A stretch of DNA of 64,000 nt from Alphaproteobacteria bacterium (GTDB lineage: Bacteria; Pseudomonadota; Alphaproteobacteria; Micropepsales; Micropepsaceae). This document shows positions 442 to 46,721 of this stretch, one piece after another (position 1 is the stretch's first letter; each line of letters begins with the position of its first letter). The stretch spans positions 37,850-101,849 of the forward strand of contig JAWXBY010000033.1 of assembly GCA_034440355.1 (NCBI GenBank), read 5' to 3'. Below the pieces are notes generated by a model. The model did no database searches. It was not told the DNA's origin and saw only the letters and a list, made by a program, of their open reading frames with translations. The position numbers and the translations under genes were made by a program.

Positions 442-469
442 GGAACGTAGCCATAATGCGGCCCGTTCC
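442..469. promoter_or_regulatory. Palindromic sigma-EcfG-type (general stress) promoter motif readable on both strands
   Basis: GGAACG-N15-CGTTCC. Plus strand reads GGAAC(442-446)-N17-CGTT(464-467) and faces the amidohydrolase. Minus strand reads GGAAC(469-465)-N17-CGTT(447-444) and faces the partial gene at 1-315. Confidence 0.5.
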
Positions 470-5265: not shown

Positions 5266-5290
5266 AACGCGGCGCGGGGCCGCGGGTTCC
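5266..5290 (-). promoter_or_regulatory. Sigma-EcfG-type promoter facing the PLP-like/GNAT/CN-hydrolase genes
   Basis: Minus strand GGAAC(5290-5286)-N16-CGTT(5269-5266), about 83 nt upstream of the ATG at 5183. Confidence 0.5.
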
Positions 5291-5302: not shown

Positions 5303-5327
5303 GGAACCGTTCTCGCTTTGTCGCGTT
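5303..5327 (+). promoter_or_regulatory. Sigma-EcfG-type promoter facing the 24-aa small ORF
   Basis: GGAAC(5303-5307)-N16-CGTT(5324-5327), 39 nt upstream of ATG 5366. Confidence 0.6.
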
Positions 5328-9364: not shown

Positions 9365-9451
9365 GATTTTTGGCCGTGTGAGAACCAGGGATACAACGCG
9401 GGCGCAGCGATGCAGGTTCCGAACGACAAGGCGCATGGGTAGTTAAGTCCG

Positions 9452-11217: not shown

Positions 11218-11242
11218 AACGCGAGGGATCGGCGCGAGTTCC
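11218..11242 (-). promoter_or_regulatory. Sigma-EcfG-type promoter facing the HAD-ATPase/GT4/glucosidase operon
   Basis: Minus strand GGAAC(11242-11238)-N16-CGTT(11221-11218). Confidence 0.55.
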
Positions 11243-11343: not shown

Positions 11344-11369
11344 GGAACTCCTCGGTTCCGTCGAGCGTT
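11344..11369 (+). promoter_or_regulatory. Sigma-EcfG-type promoter facing the KGG stress-protein gene
   Basis: GGAAC(11344-11348)-N17-CGTT(11366-11369), 40 nt upstream of ATG 11409. Confidence 0.7.
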
Positions 11370-28876: not shown

Positions 28877-29080
28877 ATGAAAACAACGAATTGGCGGTTT
28901 GTGATTGTGGGCGGGGTGATGATCGGGCTTGCGATCGGGTTTTTCGTCGTCATGGGGGCGATGGCGTCGCAGTCGACGGATCCGGCGGCGTTGATGTCGA
29001 CGGTCGGCACGGTTTCCGGCGTCGTGGCGGCGCTTGGGATTACGCTCGGCGTGCTGGGCTTTATGGGGAAGAAATTCTAG
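28877..29080 (+). CDS. 67-aa two-TM small membrane protein
   Basis: Trimmed to ATG 28877 (ggggga RBS). MKTTNWRFVIVGGVMIGLAIGFFVVMG...VVAALGITLGVLGFMGKKF. Confidence 0.5.
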   Translation: MKTTNWRFVIVGGVMIGLAIGFFVVMGAMASQSTDPAALMSTVGTVSGVVAALGITLGVLGFMGKKF

Positions 29081-30186
29081 GCCGGCGCGCGCTCGAGTTT
29101 CGCTTCGGGGATCAGGTTGCGCATACGGTTGGCGAAGCTCGCCAGGCAGACCTCTTTTGGCGAGAGCGGGCCGCTGGTGTAGCTCGACGACGTCATGCCG
29201 GCTTGGACGCCTTCGATGAGGCTGGTGTCTTCGGCGTTCACCTGGCGGTTGATGCGCCAATTGAGATAGCGCGCGGCTTTGAGTTCGCGGGTCGTGTGCG
29301 GGTGGATGTAGGCGATTTCGCGGATCAGCGTTTCCGTCGGTGAGACGGGAATGAACTGCATGAAGTCGACTTGGTCCGGGTAGATGTCGAACGCAACGTT
29401 GGGCCAGAGTTTGTAGTAGACCCAGGTGCGGCGCAGGTTTGCGGGCACGTGCGTAAGGCTGCCCAGCAAGCTTTGGTACGCGCGTTCGGACCAGTTCTCC
29501 GACGTGTTCTGCTGGAGTTCACCGGACATTTTGTCGACCCAAGTTTGGGCTTCGATCTTGTAGGTCGAGCCGAAGAGGCGGCTTAAGCCCGGGTGAGCGA
29601 CGTTGATGTGCATGCCGTCGGAGTAGTTGTCGGCGATGTTTTTCCAGTTCACCGTTCGCGGGCGCAGCGTGACGCGGCCGTTCGGGACCAGGCTTTCGAG
29701 CGCGTAGGGTTTTAGTTCGTCCGTGTACGGCGCCATCATTTCGGCGATCGACGGCAGGCCTTTCTCGAAGCGGACGAAGATGAAGCCTTGGAAGATTTCC
29801 TGCTCAACGGGGTGCAGGCCGTGTTTCGATTTGTCGAGCGCCTCGAAGCCTTGCCATTTTGGAATGCCGGCGAGAGCGCCTTCGAGTGTGTAGCTCCAGG
29901 CGTGATAGGGGCACACGAGGCGGTGGCCGCAGGAGCCGCGCGATTGCGGCGCGAGCTTTGCGGCGCGGTGGCGGCAGACGTTGTGGAAACTTCTCAGTTC
30001 GCCGTCCTGGCCGCGCAAGGTGACGACGCGGTCGCCCAGTACGTCGAGCGTGACGTAGTCGCCGGGGTTCGGCGCGTCGGAGATGTGGCCCATGATATGC
30101 CACGTCTGGCGGAACACCTTTTCGCGTTCCAACTCGAAGAATTTCGGGTCGGTGTAGAGCCAACCGGGAAGACTTGTCGCGCTCAA
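29077..30186 (-). CDS. Rieske [2Fe-2S] aromatic-ring-hydroxylating oxygenase, alpha subunit
   Basis: Rieske motif CRHRAAKL...CPYHAW. TTG 30186 with a ggag RBS is proposed as the start, because the track N-terminus overlaps the upstream small gene. Confidence 0.8.
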   Translation of the reverse strand: MSATSLPGWLYTDPKFFELEREKVFRQTWHIMGHISDAPNPGDYVTLDVLGDRVVTLRGQDGELRSFHNVCRHRAAKLAPQSRGSCGHRLVCPYHAWSYTLEGALAGIPKWQGFEALDKSKHGLHPVEQEIFQGFIFVRFEKGLPSIAEMMAPYTDELKPYALESLVPNGRVTLRPRTVNWKNIADNYSDGMHINVAHPGLSRLFGSTYKIEAQTWVDKMSGELQQNTSENWSERAYQSLLGSLTHVPANLRRTWVYYKLWPNVAFDIYPDQVDFMQFIPVSPTETLIREIAYIHPHTTRELKAARYLNWRINRQVNAEDTSLIEGVQAGMTSSSYTSGPLSPKEVCLASFANRMRNLIPEAKLERAPA

Positions 30187-30200
30187 AGATGCGGCTCCGG

Positions 30201-30407
30201 TCAGCGTTTGTCGGTGAGCGTGGCGATGCCGAAGCCTGCGCCGCCGCCGCCCAGCAGGCCTGCCACCATGATGAAGTAGCGCACGATCGTGTCGGACTCG
30301 AAGGCGTAGTTGAAGGCGACGTACGCCGCGACGGCCATGCCGGCGAAAGCGCCGATGACGGCGAAGCGGTGGGCGCGCGGGCGTTCGCTCCATTTCGGTG
30401 CTGCCAT
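30201..30407 (-). CDS. 68-aa two-TM small membrane protein
   Basis: ATG 30407 with a ggggga RBS. MAAPKWSERPRAHRFAVIGAFAGMAVAAYVAF...MVAGLLGGGGAGFGIATL. It lies 15 nt upstream of the Rieske gene. Confidence 0.55.
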   Translation of the reverse strand: MAAPKWSERPRAHRFAVIGAFAGMAVAAYVAFNYAFESDTIVRYFIMVAGLLGGGGAGFGIATLTDKR

Positions 30408-30528
30408 TATACTCCCCCTGGCGGCGGTCGGCCGGTGGGGTGCATCATAGACCGGCCTTCGCGGGCGCCGAAAGGGCCATGCGTGGCCCAATGCGAGCGG
30501 TAGCCGGTATCGTCTTCGCTCGTTCCTC

Positions 30529-30990
30529 CTAAAATTCGGCGACGGCGCCCTTGCCGCGGTTTCTTGAACCCCTCGTCCGCGGTGCAGGACATGAGTGCTT
30601 GCGAGCGAAAAGTGCGCAGGAGTCATCGTCAGCGATGCGTAGCGTGTCGGCGCGTGGGTCCGCGATGTCGCCAAGAGCGGCGCATATGTCTTGGTGGATG
30701 CGCTCGGCGGCGGCGCCGGCGCGAGCGGGGTCCGTGGTCGCGAGCAGCAAGAAGAAGCCGTCGGCGGTCCAGACGACGCGGTCGCGCTTGCGCACCACGC
30801 GATAGAGGCGGCGTTCGAGATTGAGGCGCGCGCGGTGGACATCCGGCGCGGGCAGGCCTGCGGGCAGCATTAGTTTCAAATCGAAGAAAAACGATATCGC
30901 GTCGTCGTGTTTGCCTTCGGCCAGGTCCTCGAAGCGGCGATGAAAGTCGGCGGGCTCCAGCGTCGAATGCTTAATTTGCGCTTCTCGCAT
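30529..30990 (-). CDS. Stand-alone degenerate GGDEF-like (nucleotidyl-cyclase fold) protein
   Basis: By-eye alignment to the GGDEF core: ISFFFDLK..., RDRVVWTADGFFLLLATTDPARAGAAAERIHQDI compared with canonical sDxvaRlGGDEFxvLLpxtdxxxAxxxaErir. The GGDEF signature is replaced by ADGFF. The start could be 30990 or 31020. Confidence 0.45.
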   Translation of the reverse strand: MREAQIKHSTLEPADFHRRFEDLAEGKHDDAISFFFDLKLMLPAGLPAPDVHRARLNLERRLYRVVRKRDRVVWTADGFFLLLATTDPARAGAAAERIHQDICAALGDIADPRADTLRIADDDSCALFARKHSCPAPRTRGSRNRGKGAVAEF

Positions 30991-31222
30991 GGGATATCCC
31001 TTGTTTGAGATTTGCGACAAAGGCGATCATTACGCAGCGGGCTCTAATGGTGTGCGAACGGCTGAGGGAGTTTTTGATTCAACGTTGAACTTAATTTTCG
31101 GGAACGCAGAGAGCCGCGCTCCAGCATGCGTCGGCCGTTGACGTTTTTGTCAAATAGCGCGCGTTACGTGACGTTCGGGCGCGACAGACGCCGAAATTGG
31201 CACAGCATCGACGGACCTTTGT

Positions 31223-31247
31223 GGAACCTGACCGAAGGCTGGTCGTT
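31223..31247 (+). promoter_or_regulatory. Sigma-EcfG-type promoter facing the TIR-like gene
   Basis: GGAAC(31223-31227)-N16-CGTT(31244-31247), 28 nt upstream of ATG 31275. Confidence 0.6.
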
Positions 31248-31274
31248 GTGTGTGGAGCAACGCGCTGGGAGCCC

Positions 31275-31739
31275 ATGCATAGCCGGCCGAAACTGCATTT
31301 CAGCCTTCACTTCGAGCGCGATTTCGAGGCGCTTTCCGCGATTGAGAAACTCGTCGACCGCAACGCCTATGAAGTGTTGGGGTATTTCGAGCCCGGCGCG
31401 TGGGAGCGGTTGACGCGCGCCGGCGTCGATACCGTCAAGCGCTGGGTCGACACTCAGGTGTCGCGCGCTGATGGGGTGATCGTATTGGTCGGTGCGCAGA
31501 CGTTTTCGCGGCCGATGGTGCGCTATGAGATTGCGCGTGCGGCGGCCCTGAAGCGAGGGTTGTTCGGTCTTTCGCTTGACGGAAAGGCCACCAAGAACCG
31601 CAATCAGTTCGAGTATGTGACCTTTCCGGCGGGCGTCACGCGTCACACCTATCCCGTGTTCGATCCGCCGGACGATCAGCATGCGACGGTCATGAACGCG
31701 CGCATCGCGGAGGCGTTGCGCGTGGCTGGGCGGGCTTAG
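31275..31739 (+). CDS. TIR-like domain protein (DUF1863 / ThsB-like)
   Basis: Trimmed to ATG 31275. KLHFSLHFERDFEA... and VSRADGVIVLVGAQTFSRPMVRYEIARAAALKRGLFGLSL match the DUF1863 layout (fISyhyeD ... s.v.ivLiG..T..s.wV.yEi ... gk.i.gv). Confidence 0.6.
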   Translation: MHSRPKLHFSLHFERDFEALSAIEKLVDRNAYEVLGYFEPGAWERLTRAGVDTVKRWVDTQVSRADGVIVLVGAQTFSRPMVRYEIARAAALKRGLFGLSLDGKATKNRNQFEYVTFPAGVTRHTYPVFDPPDDQHATVMNARIAEALRVAGRA

Positions 31740-32257
31740 GCCTTCATGCGCAGCTGACCCATATAATCGCGTTTGCCGAGCGGTACGCCTTTCGTGCGCA
31801 GGATGTCGTAGGCGGTCGTGGCGTGGAAATGGACGTTCGGCAACGAAAACGACAACACGAAGTTTGCTGCGGTGAAAGGCAGTTTGAAGTCGCGCATCTG
31901 GAAGGTGATGTCGCTGTCTTGGTAAGCGTTGACGTCGGCGGGCGTCATCTTCGCCAGCGTATCCCGCGTGTCGGAGACGAGTTTTTGCAGGGCCGCATAG
32001 TCGTGCGATGGCGATCCCGACGGCGGTGCGAAGGCGCCGTTCTTGATGCCTTCGATTGTGCCCAGCGAATGATGGCAGACCGACTGAACCTGGAAGCGGA
32101 AGGGAAGCATGTCGGCGAAGAGGCGCGTTTCGACGATCTCGTTCGGGTCGATGTTGTTCGCGGTGAAGTGCTTGTGTGCGCGGTCCATGAAATGCGTGAC
32201 GCCGCCCAGTGTTTGCAGGTAGCTCGCCACGCTTAGGTCGTAAAGTGATGTCGCCAT
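31736..32257 (-). CDS. DUF1993 domain protein
   Basis: MATSLYDLSVASYLQTLGGVTHFMDRA... is a typical DUF1993 N-terminus. Confidence 0.75.
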   Translation of the reverse strand: MATSLYDLSVASYLQTLGGVTHFMDRAHKHFTANNIDPNEIVETRLFADMLPFRFQVQSVCHHSLGTIEGIKNGAFAPPSGSPSHDYAALQKLVSDTRDTLAKMTPADVNAYQDSDITFQMRDFKLPFTAANFVLSFSLPNVHFHATTAYDILRTKGVPLGKRDYMGQLRMKA

Positions 32258-32347
32258 CGGCTTGTCCTCGTTCGGTTCGATGCGGGGTGAAGGGGATAGG
32301 TCCGGCGCGCTCTGGTCAAGGGTGTCGCTCTGACGCTAGGGTTTGCG

Positions 32348-33166
32348 ATGGCTGCGGGTGTTGGCTGGGTGCGCCGAGCGCCCGGCGTGATCGATCGGAT
32401 CGAGGCGTGCTTTTCGGGGACGGCGTATGCGCCGCATCGCCACGATACGTATGCGATCGGGGTGACGCTGAAGGGCGTTCAGAGTTTCGACTATCGCGGG
32501 ACGACGCGGCATTCGCGGCCGGGGCAGATGGTCATTCTGCATCCCGATGAGATTCACGACGGACGCGCGGGCGATGACGGCGCGTTTCAGTATCGTACGG
32601 CTTATCTTGCGCCTGCCGACATTCAAGGCGTGTTGGGTGGACGTGCGCTGCCGTTCGTTGCCGGCGGTGTTTCCAGTGACCCCCGGCTTTACCGCGCGGT
32701 GTGCGCGTTGCTGGACGACTATGAGCGGCCGCTGACGGCGCATCAGTATCAGGACACCCTGTTCGATCTGGCGACGGCGCTTGAGGATGTTTCCGGTGGT
32801 GGCAAGACGATCGGGCGCGTCAACCGGCGGGCTGCGATGCAGGCGCGGGACTTTATCGACGCGCGCATCGAGAGCGACGTCTCGCTTGACGAACTAGAGC
32901 GCGTGACGCGGCATGACCGGTGGCAGTTGTCGCGCGATTTTCGCGCGCTATTCGGCACCAGTCCTTACCGGTATTTGCTGCTGCGCCGGCTCGATAGCGC
33001 GCGCGCCATGATGCTGGGCGGGCAGTCGATTGCCGACGCGGCTACGGCTTGCGGCTTTGCCGATCAGAGTCATTTCGGGCGGTCGTTCAAGAAGACCTTC
33101 GGATTGACGCCCAATGCATGGTTGAGGGCCATCCGGCGCTCGCACGATCGTTCTAGACCCGCGTGA
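32348..33166 (+). CDS. AraC family transcriptional regulator (cupin-like N-terminal domain)
   Basis: C-terminal double HTH: SLDELERVTRHDRWQLSRDFRALFGTSPYRYLLLRRL...CGFADQSHFGRSFKKTFG. Confidence 0.9.
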   Translation: MAAGVGWVRRAPGVIDRIEACFSGTAYAPHRHDTYAIGVTLKGVQSFDYRGTTRHSRPGQMVILHPDEIHDGRAGDDGAFQYRTAYLAPADIQGVLGGRALPFVAGGVSSDPRLYRAVCALLDDYERPLTAHQYQDTLFDLATALEDVSGGGKTIGRVNRRAAMQARDFIDARIESDVSLDELERVTRHDRWQLSRDFRALFGTSPYRYLLLRRLDSARAMMLGGQSIADAATACGFADQSHFGRSFKKTFGLTPNAWLRAIRRSHDRSRPA

Positions 33167-38701: not shown

Positions 38702-38726
38702 GGAACGCTCGCGGCGTCCGTTCGTT
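38702..38726 (+). promoter_or_regulatory. Sigma-EcfG-type promoter facing the hypothetical gene at 38757
   Basis: GGAAC(38702-38706)-N16-CGTT(38723-38726), 31 nt upstream of ATG 38757. Confidence 0.55.
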
Positions 38727-43363: not shown

Positions 43364-43389
43364 AACGTGTGGAGTCTTCGGCTGGTTCC
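43364..43389 (-). promoter_or_regulatory. Sigma-EcfG-type promoter facing the secreted-protein gene at 43322
   Basis: Minus strand GGAAC(43389-43385)-N17-CGTT(43367-43364), 42 nt upstream of the ATG. Confidence 0.6.
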
Positions 43390-46696: not shown

Positions 46697-46721
46697 AACG
46701 CATTCGAGGACGCTGGGTTCC
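46697..46721 (-). promoter_or_regulatory. Sigma-EcfG-type promoter facing the DUF883 gene
   Basis: Minus strand GGAAC(46721-46717)-N16-CGTT(46700-46697), 36 nt upstream of the ATG. Confidence 0.7.

What the first reader, a model, noticed from the sequence alone, without database searches (positions are those of the whole stretch)
30529..31739. Stress-promoter-driven ThsB/DUF1863-like TIR-domain gene, divergently paired with a stand-alone degenerate GGDEF-like protein
The 154-aa product of 31275-31739 has the layout of TIR-like DUF1863/ThsB proteins: KLHFSLHFERD..., then VIVLVGAQTFSRPMVRYEIARA with a candidate catalytic Glu. Such TIR proteins make nucleotide signals in Thoeris-type anti-phage defence, but no ThsA-like effector is adjacent here. 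Instead the gene carries an exact EcfG-type promoter. Its divergent neighbour (30529-30990) aligns by eye to the GGDEF nucleotidyl-cyclase core with the active-site GGDEF replaced by ADGFF. The 255-nt spacer between them is visibly AT-richer than its surroundings. A TIR NADase-like protein wired to the general stress response, next to a catalytically odd cyclase-fold protein, fits no described system I know. It could be a nucleotide-signalling or NAD-turnover module, or two unrelated orphans.
Basis: partly seen in the sequence, partly recalled or inferred. Interest (0 to 1): 0.7.

Follow-up and report, generated by a model that had tools for sequence, protein, structure and literature searches.

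The report
Lone TIR gene beside unrelated GGDEF-like gene
A small bacterial TIR enzyme gene of the anti-phage ThsB type sits alone behind a general-stress promoter, and the odd cyclase-like gene next to it is an unrelated, older resident of the chromosome, so the two are neighbours rather than a new signalling system.

Summary
The sequence features are real. The 154-aa product of 31275-31739(+) is a genuine ThsB-family TIR protein. It passes the Pfam ThsB_TIR cut-off, its best fold match is EcThsB, and Glu85 aligns with Glu85 of the B. cereus ThsB chain. It is under purifying selection (dN/dS 0.12). An exact GGAAC-N16-CGTT motif ends 27 nt before its ATG. That motif is enriched about 10-fold in the window, and 10 of 12 copies lie in non-coding DNA. 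The divergent neighbour, here called B (30529-30990, minus strand), belongs to a tight family of about 85 small stand-alone proteins. Its confident core is a beta-alpha-beta-beta-alpha fold, a truncated and catalytically dead remote relative of GGDEF. It keeps residues that align with the PleD inhibitory site (R67xxD70, R97).

The pairing is not supported. Six independent B-bearing lineages lack the TIR gene. One of them keeps only its last 17 codons after a 536-bp deletion. Distant TIR relatives have other neighbours, often a HIT-domain protein (PADLOC candidate PDC-M50). No ThsA or HIT partner lies in the 64 kb. The best reading is two unrelated genes: a solo, probably stress-induced ThsB-like TIR, and an orphan mini-GGDEF-like protein. 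Interest is modest.

The parts
31275..31739 (+). Solo ThsB-family TIR gene (154 aa) with candidate catalytic Glu85. Its stop codon overlaps the stop codon of the convergent DUF1993 gene by 4 nt.
   Evidence: Pfam PF08937 scores 40.9 bits against a cut-off of 21.2. PADLOC gives PDC-M50B 69 bits and ThsB1 64 bits. The AF2 model has pLDDT 86.7 and pTM 0.84. The top Foldseek hit is EcThsB 8wcf (E 2.3e-10, TM 0.77). phmmer gives 8wcf 3e-11 and 6lhy 1.4e-6, with VRYEI aligned. dN/dS against L007 is 0.12.
31223..31247 (+). EcfG-type (general stress response ECF sigma) promoter motif GGAAC-N16-CGTT. Its -10 element ends 27 nt upstream of the ATG.
   Evidence: Exact match; 12 copies in the window against 1.27 expected. 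Ten of the 12 are non-coding. In the one diverged relative, L007, the motif reads GGAAC-N16-TGTT, which still fits the experimentally derived GGAAC-N17-20-GTT motif of PMC6599016.
31267..31271 (+). Shine-Dalgarno-like GGGAG, 3 nt before the ATG of the TIR gene
   Evidence: Read directly from the sequence.
30529..30990 (-). Gene B: 153-aa stand-alone protein. Residues about 19-106 form a conserved truncated GGDEF-like core (beta-alpha-beta-beta-alpha), and the C-terminal tail is variable and low-confidence.
   Evidence: Family alignment A1. The AF2 core has pLDDT above 90. GGDEF domains and class III cyclases are prominent among the top weak Foldseek hits. Sub-threshold Pfam hits to GGDEF_2 and GGDEF occur in 20 and 16 of 49 members. 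hhalign and HMM alignments place RKRD(67-70) on the RxxD motif, TADGF(75-79) on GG(D/E)EF, and AER(95-97) on AER(R390).
30991..31274 (.). Divergent 284-nt spacer at 55.6% GC. It contains the palindrome TTCAACGTTGAA (31078-31089) and the inverted repeat TTGACGTTTTTGTCAA (31138-31153), both conserved in relatives.
31098..31741 (.). Lineage-specific segment (promoter plus TIR ORF) that is absent from relatives L005/L006. The sub-segment 31153-31688 is deleted in L003/L004, which keep the last 17 codons of the TIR ORF.
   Evidence: blastn break points and junction sequences.
31736..32257 (-). DUF1993 gene, convergent with the TIR gene. It is conserved next to B in relatives that lack the TIR gene.
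   Evidence: Pfam PF09351, E 2.4e-46; synteny.
30201..30407 (-). Conserved 68-aa predicted membrane protein gene downstream of B, hidden inside the over-long Rieske ORF call
   Evidence: A 68-aa gene is called at the same place in L003-L006 and L016-L021; ORF listed.

Best explanation
The locus holds two functionally independent genes, not a system.

(1) The plus-strand gene encodes a solo ThsB-family TIR enzyme. By homology it should bind NAD+ and either cleave it or convert it into an ADP-ribose-derived product, using Glu85. That activity is inferred, not shown. The gene and its promoter form a 0.64-kb lineage-specific segment between two old chromosomal genes. One sister lineage has since lost most of it by deletion, and where the gene is present it is kept under purifying selection. 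It is most likely transcribed by the general-stress sigma factor EcfG from a promoter 27 nt upstream of the ATG, again an inference. With no ThsA, HIT or other effector in 64 kb, it either feeds an unlinked effector or acts alone as a stress-induced NAD-consuming enzyme.

(2) The minus-strand gene B is a vertically inherited small protein that, where taxon labels exist, occurs in Alphaproteobacteria. Its core is a truncated, catalytically dead GGDEF-like palm. It retains the three residues that in PleD form the c-di-GMP inhibitory site. Its most likely role is as a small nucleotide-binding (c-di-GMP-type) adaptor, not as a cyclase. That role is also inferred.
For: TIR identity:
- Pfam ThsB_TIR passes its cut-off and PADLOC gives PDC-M50B and ThsB1.
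- A confident AF2 model has EcThsB, ThsB1 and BcThsB as its top PDB fold matches.
- Pairwise phmmer gives 3e-11 and 1.4e-6, with Glu85 in VRYEI aligned to the same motif.
- Glu85 is invariant in the closest subfamily.

Selection: 26 synonymous against 11 non-synonymous changes compared with L007, dN/dS 0.12.

Independence of the two genes:
- B homologues in L001, L002, L003/4, L005/6, L011-13 and L014/15 have no TIR gene.
- L003 keeps only a 17-codon remnant after a 536-bp deletion.
- The TIR relatives in L008-L010 and L077 have no B gene.
- About 85 clusters were found for B. For the TIR the word-index search found only two clusters at 90% identity or more, and the next representative is 45% identical.

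No partner: a PADLOC scan of 56 window ORFs finds no ThsA, ThsC or PDC-M50A.

Promoter:
- Exact match and motif enrichment, with 10 of 12 copies non-coding.
- The -35 element and the GTT are kept in L007, consistent with the published motif.
- In L008/9 and L010, the only relaxed-motif hit in the whole locus lies upstream of the TIR gene or its operon, on the right strand.

B as GGDEF-like. The I-site residue definition comes from PMC7288161.
Against: - No experiment or transcript data are available, so EcfG dependence rests on a consensus match. In L007 the -10 element reads TGTT rather than CGTT.
- Only 64 kb of the genome was seen, so an unlinked effector cannot be excluded.
- In the window's own clade the two genes are always adjacent and divergent. 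A clade-specific functional link is therefore not formally excluded.
- The GGDEF relationship of B is weak. The window protein has no Pfam hit, the best Foldseek E-value is 0.07, hhalign against PleD gives P = 0.05, and a profile search did not bridge to real GGDEF proteins.
- Invariance of R67, D70 and R97 is weak evidence in a family where 25 core positions are invariant.
Confidence: 0.7

Rival explanations
1. The TIR protein and the GGDEF-like protein form a two-gene nucleotide-signalling or NAD-turnover module. In this reading the TIR makes a nucleotide signal and B binds or modifies it.
For: The genes are divergent neighbours sharing a 284-nt spacer in every member of the window's own clade. 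B keeps a nucleotide-binding-type motif set.
Against: Six independent B lineages lack the TIR gene. Four TIR-relative lineages lack B. The TIR gene was deleted in L003/L004 with B left intact. The B family is much more widespread than this TIR clade.
Confidence: 0.05
2. The TIR gene is the sensor and signal-synthase half of a Thoeris-like or PDC-M50-like anti-phage system whose effector (ThsA, a HIT-domain protein or another) is encoded elsewhere in the genome. The stress-type promoter would then be incidental or would add a second input.
For: The best family matches are ThsB and PDC-M50B. Thirty of the 78 nearest-neighbour ORFs of 53 distant relatives are HIT-domain PDC-M50A/ThsC proteins. 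The gain-and-loss pattern is typical of defence genes. One relative sits beside a DruM-like cytosine methyltransferase.
Against: No such partner was detected among the 56 other ORFs scanned in the 64-kb window, which is core chromosome. None of the four closest-subclade contexts examined has a HIT or ThsA neighbour. Known Thoeris genes are contiguous (my background knowledge).
Confidence: 0.25
3. The TIR ORF is a decaying remnant of a former defence system, and the promoter match is fortuitous.
For: The gene is solo and a sister lineage deleted it. The -10 element is not perfectly conserved in L007.
Against: dN/dS is 0.12, the ORF is intact and all family-conserved residues are kept in two lineages about 11% diverged at the DNA level. 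A chance exact motif within 100 nt upstream on the correct strand has a probability of roughly 0.001, my arithmetic from the shuffle rate.
Confidence: 0.07

Closest known systems
ThsB, the TIR-domain component of Thoeris anti-phage systems (Pfam PF08937/DUF1863; structures 6LHY B. cereus ThsB, 8WCF EcThsB, 9B7D ThsB1)
   Same: Same single-domain size and fold (TM 0.77 to 8WCF). The N-terminal hHFShHF.RD strand motif, the VLxG..T..R..V.YEI motif and Glu85 all align with ThsB.
   Different: No ThsA is adjacent or within 64 kb. The protein belongs to a divergent subclade at or below 48% identity to anything else. It lies in core chromosome rather than a defence island and carries an ECF/EcfG-type promoter.
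PADLOC candidate system PDC-M50 (TIR protein PDC-M50B plus HIT-domain protein PDC-M50A/ThsC-like). This is a prediction by genomic embedding, not experimentally validated (bioRxiv 10.1101/2024.01.29.577857).
   Same: PDC-M50B is the best PADLOC model for the window protein (69 bits). Distant relatives at 30-35% identity do sit directly upstream of a HIT-domain ORF.
   Different: There is no HIT-domain gene next to the window gene or among the 56 other window ORFs scanned. None is seen next to its four closest relatives either.
Degenerate GGDEF domains that act as c-di-GMP receptors through the RxxD inhibitory site (for example PelD and PopA, from my background knowledge; I-site definition R359/D362/R390 of PleD from PMC7288161)
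   Same: B aligns to the alpha2-beta2-hairpin-beta3-alpha3 part of GGDEF in the same register against two different GGDEF domains. Its invariant R67xxD70 falls on RxxD and R97 on R390. The active-site motif is degenerate, TADGF in place of GG(D/E)EF.
   Different: Only half a domain is present. The N-terminal guanine-binding segment and the C-terminal strands are missing. The protein is stand-alone at about 140 aa and below all curated thresholds, and c-di-GMP binding is untested.
EcfG (ECF15) general-stress-response promoters of Alphaproteobacteria
   Same: GGAAC-N16-CGTT lies 27 nt upstream of the CDS. Motifs of this type cluster within 100 bp of EcfG-controlled genes (PMC6599016).
   Different: No transcript or regulator data exist for this organism. 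My two literature searches found no paper mentioning EcfG together with a TIR domain, and none of the listed general-stress-response papers mentions DUF1863.

Membership tests
ThsB_TIR (PF08937 / DUF1863) | Score above the curated Pfam gathering threshold | tested here: met
   40.9 bits against a cut-off of 21.2, covering residues 9-104 and profile positions 2-98 of 100.
ThsB_TIR (PF08937 / DUF1863) | ThsB-like flavodoxin/TIR fold | tested here: met
   The AF2 model has pLDDT 86.7. Foldseek gives 8wcf at E 2.3e-10 (TM 0.77/0.75), 9b7d at 1.3e-6 and 6lhy at 1.1e-5.
ThsB_TIR (PF08937 / DUF1863) | Catalytic glutamate in the (W/M)V.YEI motif | tested here: met
   Glu85 of MVRYEI aligns with the Glu of WVRYEI, which by my count is residue 85 of the 6lhy chain. 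That this Glu is the catalytic residue of B. cereus ThsB is my background knowledge. Glu85 is invariant in the subfamily alignment A6.
ThsB_TIR (PF08937 / DUF1863) | NAD+ cleavage or cyclic ADPR-isomer synthesis | not testable with these tools
   This needs purified protein and LC-MS.
Thoeris system | ThsA effector (SIR2, SLOG, Macro or TM type) encoded next to ThsB | tested here: not met
   The neighbours are DUF1993, gene B, an AraC-type regulator, a CAAX protease and a Rieske oxygenase. PADLOC finds no ThsA model among the 56 window ORFs scanned or in gene B itself.
PADLOC PDC-M50 candidate system | HIT-domain PDC-M50A gene adjacent to the TIR gene | tested here: not met
   Such a gene is present in 30 of the 78 neighbour ORFs of distant relatives. 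It was not detected in the window ORFs scanned or beside the closest relatives.
GGDEF diguanylate cyclase domain (PF00990) | Score above the curated Pfam threshold | tested here: not met
   The window protein has no hit even at E up to 1. Only sub-threshold hits appear, in 16 of 49 family members for GGDEF and 20 of 49 for GGDEF_2, with best E-values 3.4e-3 and 6.7e-4.
GGDEF diguanylate cyclase domain (PF00990) | GG(D/E)EF active-site motif | tested here: not met
   The aligned residues are TADGF. The fourth position is an invariant Gly, and the third position varies (D/E/G/Q) across the family.
GGDEF diguanylate cyclase domain (PF00990) | Complete fold of about 160 residues (five-stranded sheet with the N-terminal substrate-binding segment) | tested here: not met
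   Only beta(32-37)-alpha(48-65)-beta(71-74)-beta(78-83)-alpha(88-110) is modelled with confidence. Foldseek alignments cover 45-84 columns at E 0.07 or worse.
GGDEF-type I-site c-di-GMP receptor | RxxD five residues before the GGDEF position, plus the second Arg (PleD R390) | tested here: met
   R67, D70 and R97 are invariant in 49 sequences. They fall on R359, D362 and R390 of PleD in the hhalign and HMM alignments. The residue definition is from PMC7288161. The underlying alignment is weak.
GGDEF-type I-site c-di-GMP receptor | Binding of c-di-GMP | not testable with these tools
   This needs DRaCALA, ITC or a similar assay on the purified protein.
EcfG-dependent promoter | GGAAC-N16-17-CGTT within about 100 nt upstream of the CDS, on the coding strand | tested here: met
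   The motif is at 31223-31247 and the ATG at 31275.
EcfG-dependent promoter | Conservation of the motif in diverged orthologous loci | tested here: inconclusive
   Only one diverged orthologue is available, L007. It has GGAAC-N16-TGTT, so the -35 element and the GTT are kept but the C is lost. L016-L021 are identical to the window and carry no information.
EcfG-dependent promoter | EcfG/PhyR-dependent, stress-induced transcription start | not testable with these tools
   This needs RNA-seq or 5'-RACE in the wild type and in ecfG or phyR mutants.

The most novel reading that the evidence does not exclude
This divergent solo branch of ThsB-like TIR enzymes has been recruited into the alphaproteobacterial general stress response. 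An EcfG-type motif precedes the gene, or its operon, in three of five independent lineages examined. Under this reading the enzyme uses NAD+ cleavage or an ADP-ribose-derived signal for stress physiology or dormancy rather than for phage defence, and does so without a dedicated effector.
Probability: 0.12. Interest if true: 0.65.

Novelty: new member of a known kind. Interest (0 to 1): 0.33.

Why it matters
If the solo TIR enzyme really is switched on by the general stress sigma factor, it would link bacterial TIR/NAD chemistry to ordinary stress physiology rather than only to phage defence. It would also give a simple single-gene model for asking what an effector-less ThsB does. Separately, the B family would be the smallest GGDEF-derived module known to me, an I-site-only half domain. 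That makes it a handy test of whether the inhibitory site alone can serve as a c-di-GMP receptor. As it stands, the locus is mostly a caution: adjacency in one genome, even with suggestive domains on both sides, did not survive comparison with relatives.

Tried and rejected
It returned only one locus, so genome-wide co-occurrence statistics could not be made. I used exact-protein contig look-ups instead.
- The exact TIR protein of the window is not on record.
- A profile search with the B family found only more small stand-alone members. It gave no bridge to bona fide GGDEF proteins.
- A B-profile search of PDB sequences gave only a chance-level hit to MltF.
- hhalign of the B family against a single PleD GGDEF sequence was weak (P = 0.05). 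I therefore added a shuffle control with the family HMM. PleD was reached or beaten by 37 of 3000 shuffles, and the 6d9m GGDEF domain by 0 of 3000.
- I looked for real GGDEF proteins in all fetched DNA to build a GGDEF profile and found none.
- Full-text searches found nothing for PDC-M50, for EcfG together with a TIR domain, or for orphan or solo ThsB. The search pairing DUF1863 with general-stress-response terms returned only stress-response papers, and none of those listed mentions DUF1863.
- Alignment A6 was too diverse for a locus search. The narrower A7 retrieved only 30-35% identical relatives, which are informative about PDC-M50 but not about the close subclade.
- Small partners next to the TIR relatives (127 aa in L010, 188 aa in L077) show no similarity to B, to each other or to HIT proteins.
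- The sigma-70 consensus scan found no promoter in 30300-32400, and the terminator-like hits there are not above background.
- I considered a toxin-antitoxin-like link between the TIR gene and DUF1993, whose stop codons overlap. I rejected it because DUF1993 is conserved where the TIR gene is absent.
Full report
**What is there.** The window is GC-rich (63.4%) core chromosome with dnaB, alr, mlaE, radA, cvpA and purF-type genes. NCBI labels a near-identical MAG only as "Alphaproteobacteria bacterium". Two divergent ORFs occupy the stated coordinates.
- The plus-strand ORF at 31275-31739 encodes 154 aa.
- The minus-strand ORF at 30529-30990 encodes 153 aa and is called B here.
- The spacer is 284 nt, not 255, at 55.6% GC.
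- GGAAC-N16-CGTT lies at 31223-31247, GGGAG at 31267-31271 and the ATG at 31275.
- The TIR stop codon overlaps the stop codon of the convergent DUF1993 gene (31736-32257, minus strand) by 4 nt.

**The TIR protein.**
- It passes the curated Pfam threshold for ThsB_TIR, at 40.9 bits against 21.2.
- Its best PADLOC models are PDC-M50B (69 bits) and ThsB1 (64 bits).
- An alignment-based AlphaFold model is confident, with pLDDT 86.7 and pTM 0.84.
- The best solved-structure matches are EcThsB 8WCF (E 2.3e-10, TM 0.77), then ThsB1 9B7D and B. cereus ThsB 6LHY. More distant matches are DNPH1 and nucleoside deoxyribosyltransferase-type N-glycosidases and other TIR domains.
- Pairwise phmmer gives 3e-11 to 8WCF and 1.4e-6 to 6LHY.
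- Glu85 in MVRYEI sits on the Glu of WVRYEI. By my count this is residue 85 of the 6LHY chain, and from background knowledge it is the catalytic residue of B. cereus ThsB.
- Glu85 is invariant among the closest relatives.
- The protein is rare and divergent. An exhaustive HMMER search of 1.84 billion representatives gives one cluster above 90% identity, and the next hit is 45% identical. There are 451 hits at E up to 1e-3.
- Against the only diverged orthologue (L007, about 89% DNA identity) there are 26 synonymous and 11 non-synonymous changes. This gives dN/dS 0.12, against 0.05 for the neighbouring DUF1993 gene. The gene is therefore maintained.
- NCBI already names the near-identical MAG protein "TIR domain-containing protein".

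**The promoter.**
- The strict EcfG consensus occurs 12 times in the window against 1.27 expected, and no shuffle of 100 reached 12.
- On an approximate gene map that is 85% coding, 10 of the 12 sites are non-coding. Most point at a nearby gene start. A simple binomial gives about 3e-7, by my arithmetic.
- The motif is therefore a real signal in this genome, and the TIR copy has canonical geometry.
- In L007 the -35 element and the GTT are kept but the C of CGTT is a T. That still fits the experimentally derived S. melonis motif GGAAC-N17-20-GTT, which is concentrated within 100 bp of EcfG-controlled genes (PMC6599016).
- In the distant solo relatives L008/L009 and L010, the only relaxed-motif hit in the whole contig, on either strand, lies upstream of the TIR gene or of its two-gene operon, on the correct strand. 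L077 and L078 have none there.
- This comparison was post hoc and the hosts of those contigs are unknown, so I treat it as a lead only.

**The neighbour B.**
- The window protein has no Pfam or PADLOC hit and only a 13-bit NCBIfam hit to the diguanylate cyclase SiaD.
- It belongs to a compact family of about 85 clusters, all of them stand-alone proteins. The full-length members are about 120-156 aa and no member has a Pfam annotation.
- Only residues about 19-106 are conserved.
- The modelled core has pLDDT above 90 and reads beta-alpha-beta-beta-alpha.
- Foldseek finds nothing at E up to 1e-3. GGDEF domains and class III cyclases (SiaD, Rv1900c, 3ICL, DosC, Dcsbis, PleD) are prominent among the top weak hits, alongside unrelated ribosome-assembly and de novo ferredoxin-fold chains, with probabilities up to 0.95.
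- Twenty of 49 members give sub-threshold hits to GGDEF_2 and 16 to GGDEF.
- The family HMM scores the GGDEF domain of 6D9M above all 3000 composition-matched shuffles. PleD is reached or beaten by only 37 of 3000.
- hhalign against PleD and the HMM alignment to 6D9M agree on one register. R67-K-R-D70 falls on the RxxD inhibitory-site motif. TADGF falls on GG(D/E)EF. A95-E-R97 falls on AER, which contains PleD R390.
- According to PMC7288161, R359, D362 and R390 form the PleD I-site.
- All three aligned residues are invariant in the B family. The active-site positions are degenerate, with an invariant Gly where the essential acidic residue should be.
- My conclusion is that B is a truncated, non-catalytic, remote GGDEF-like module. 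Nucleotide (c-di-GMP-type) binding is a reasonable but untested function.
- One relative (L002) places its B gene 22 bp upstream of a 511-aa cellulose-synthase-like glycosyltransferase with no PilZ hit on record, followed by BcsS and a GH8 glucanase. This fits a c-di-GMP role but is a single case.

**Are they a pair? No.**
- Relatives L003/L004 and L005/L006 have the order DUF1993, B, 68-aa gene, Rieske, radA, cvpA with no TIR gene.
- blastn shows that window 31098-31741 is simply absent from L005, and that 31153-31688 is absent from L003.
- L003 still carries the last 17 codons of the TIR ORF in frame (VMSARIAEALRASGRG*). The deletion junction lies between two TGAC tetranucleotides.
- The simplest history is that the gene was gained in an ancestor of the window, L007 and L003 lineages and then lost by deletion in L003/L004.
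- More distant B loci (L001, L002, L011-13, L014/15) also lack the TIR gene.
- Conversely, the closest TIR relatives sit next to other genes. These are an AraC-type regulator and a DruM-like cytosine methyltransferase (L008), a Crp-type regulator and a 127-aa unknown (L010), and an AraC-type regulator and a 188-aa unknown (L077). None of them has B nearby.
- Only the window's own clade has both genes.

**Partner systems.**
- Of the 78 nearest-neighbour ORFs beside 53 more distant TIR relatives (30-35% identity), 30 are HIT-domain proteins matching PADLOC PDC-M50A/ThsC. This shows what the unvalidated PDC-M50 candidate consists of.
- The window has no HIT or ThsA gene next to the TIR gene or among the 56 other ORFs scanned.
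- Membership of a Thoeris or PDC-M50 system therefore fails on the defining partner gene, while membership of the ThsB protein family is firm.

**Mechanism and verdict.**
- Shown: protein family, fold, conserved Glu, purifying selection, the promoter-motif match and its genome-level non-randomness, and independence from B.
- Inferred: NAD+-directed catalysis, EcfG-dependent stress induction, and whether the protein acts alone or with an unlinked effector.
- For B, a GGDEF-like half-domain with I-site-like residues is shown weakly. Ligand binding is inferred.
- The finding is a correct reading of the sequence and a mostly correct domain call. The exciting part, a new two-gene module, is not supported.
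- What remains is a new, solo and probably stress-wired member of the ThsB family, next to an uncharacterised mini-GGDEF-like orphan. This is of modest interest.

Noticed in passing
window 442-469, 5266-5290(-), 5303-5327(+), 9395-9420(-), 11218-11242(-), 11344-11369(+), 38702-38726(+), 43364-43389(-), 46697-46721(-): Besides the TIR promoter, the window holds 11 more exact GGAAC-N16/17-CGTT sites, and 9 of them lie in non-coding DNA. They include a divergent pair between a 485-aa gene with no Pfam hit and a 212-aa membrane protein. Others precede a GT4 glycosyltransferase, a HAD/S6PP-like phosphatase and a glycogen-debranching-like gene cluster, which looks like a compatible-solute operon. 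The window appears unusually rich in general-stress promoters.
   Followed up: partly
window 31078-31089 and 31138-31153: Two palindromes lie in the spacer. TTCAACGTTGAA is conserved in L003, L005 and L007, which includes lineages without the TIR gene. TTGACGTTTTTGTCAA is conserved in L003 and L007. They are candidate operator sites for gene B, and no regulator has been identified.
   Followed up: no
L003 5404-5450 (and L004), corresponding to window 31689-31739: Relatives that lack the TIR gene still carry its last 17 codons in frame. This is the scar of a 536-bp deletion between two TGAC tetranucleotides.
   Followed up: yes
window 29077-30393(-) and 30201-30407(-): The longest Rieske-oxygenase ORF (438 aa) is over-extended, since orthologues are 369 aa. 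The extension hides a conserved 68-aa gene that looks like a two-helix membrane protein, lying between the Rieske gene and B.
   Followed up: partly
L002 6001-9887: In one relative the B homologue lies 22 bp upstream of a 511-aa cellulose-synthase-like GT2 with no PilZ hit on record, followed by BcsS-like and GH8 genes. All of this is inserted between the Rieske gene and radA. It hints that B-family proteins could act with polysaccharide synthases.
   Followed up: no
L026, L029, L031-L033, L035-L045, L047, L049-L055, L057, L060, L061 (ORF immediately downstream of the TIR match): Thirty metagenomic loci carry a TIR gene followed by a 290-340-aa HIT-domain protein whose C-terminal region looks hydrophobic. 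These ORFs match PADLOC PDC-M50A and ThsC. I found no publication describing PDC-M50 itself in the literature held.
   Followed up: partly
L008 224-1312(-) and L077 3594-4877(-): Two independent solo-TIR relatives are each divergently paired with an AraC-family regulator carrying an Arabinose_bd domain. A third (L010) is paired with a Crp-type regulator. This is a possible recurrent regulator association for this TIR subclade.
   Followed up: no
L001 (CAZJOM010000077.1): The contig carrying a B homologue is labelled as a Flavobacteriaceae MAG. Every other B-family member that carries a taxon label is alphaproteobacterial, so this may be a binning error.
   Followed up: no
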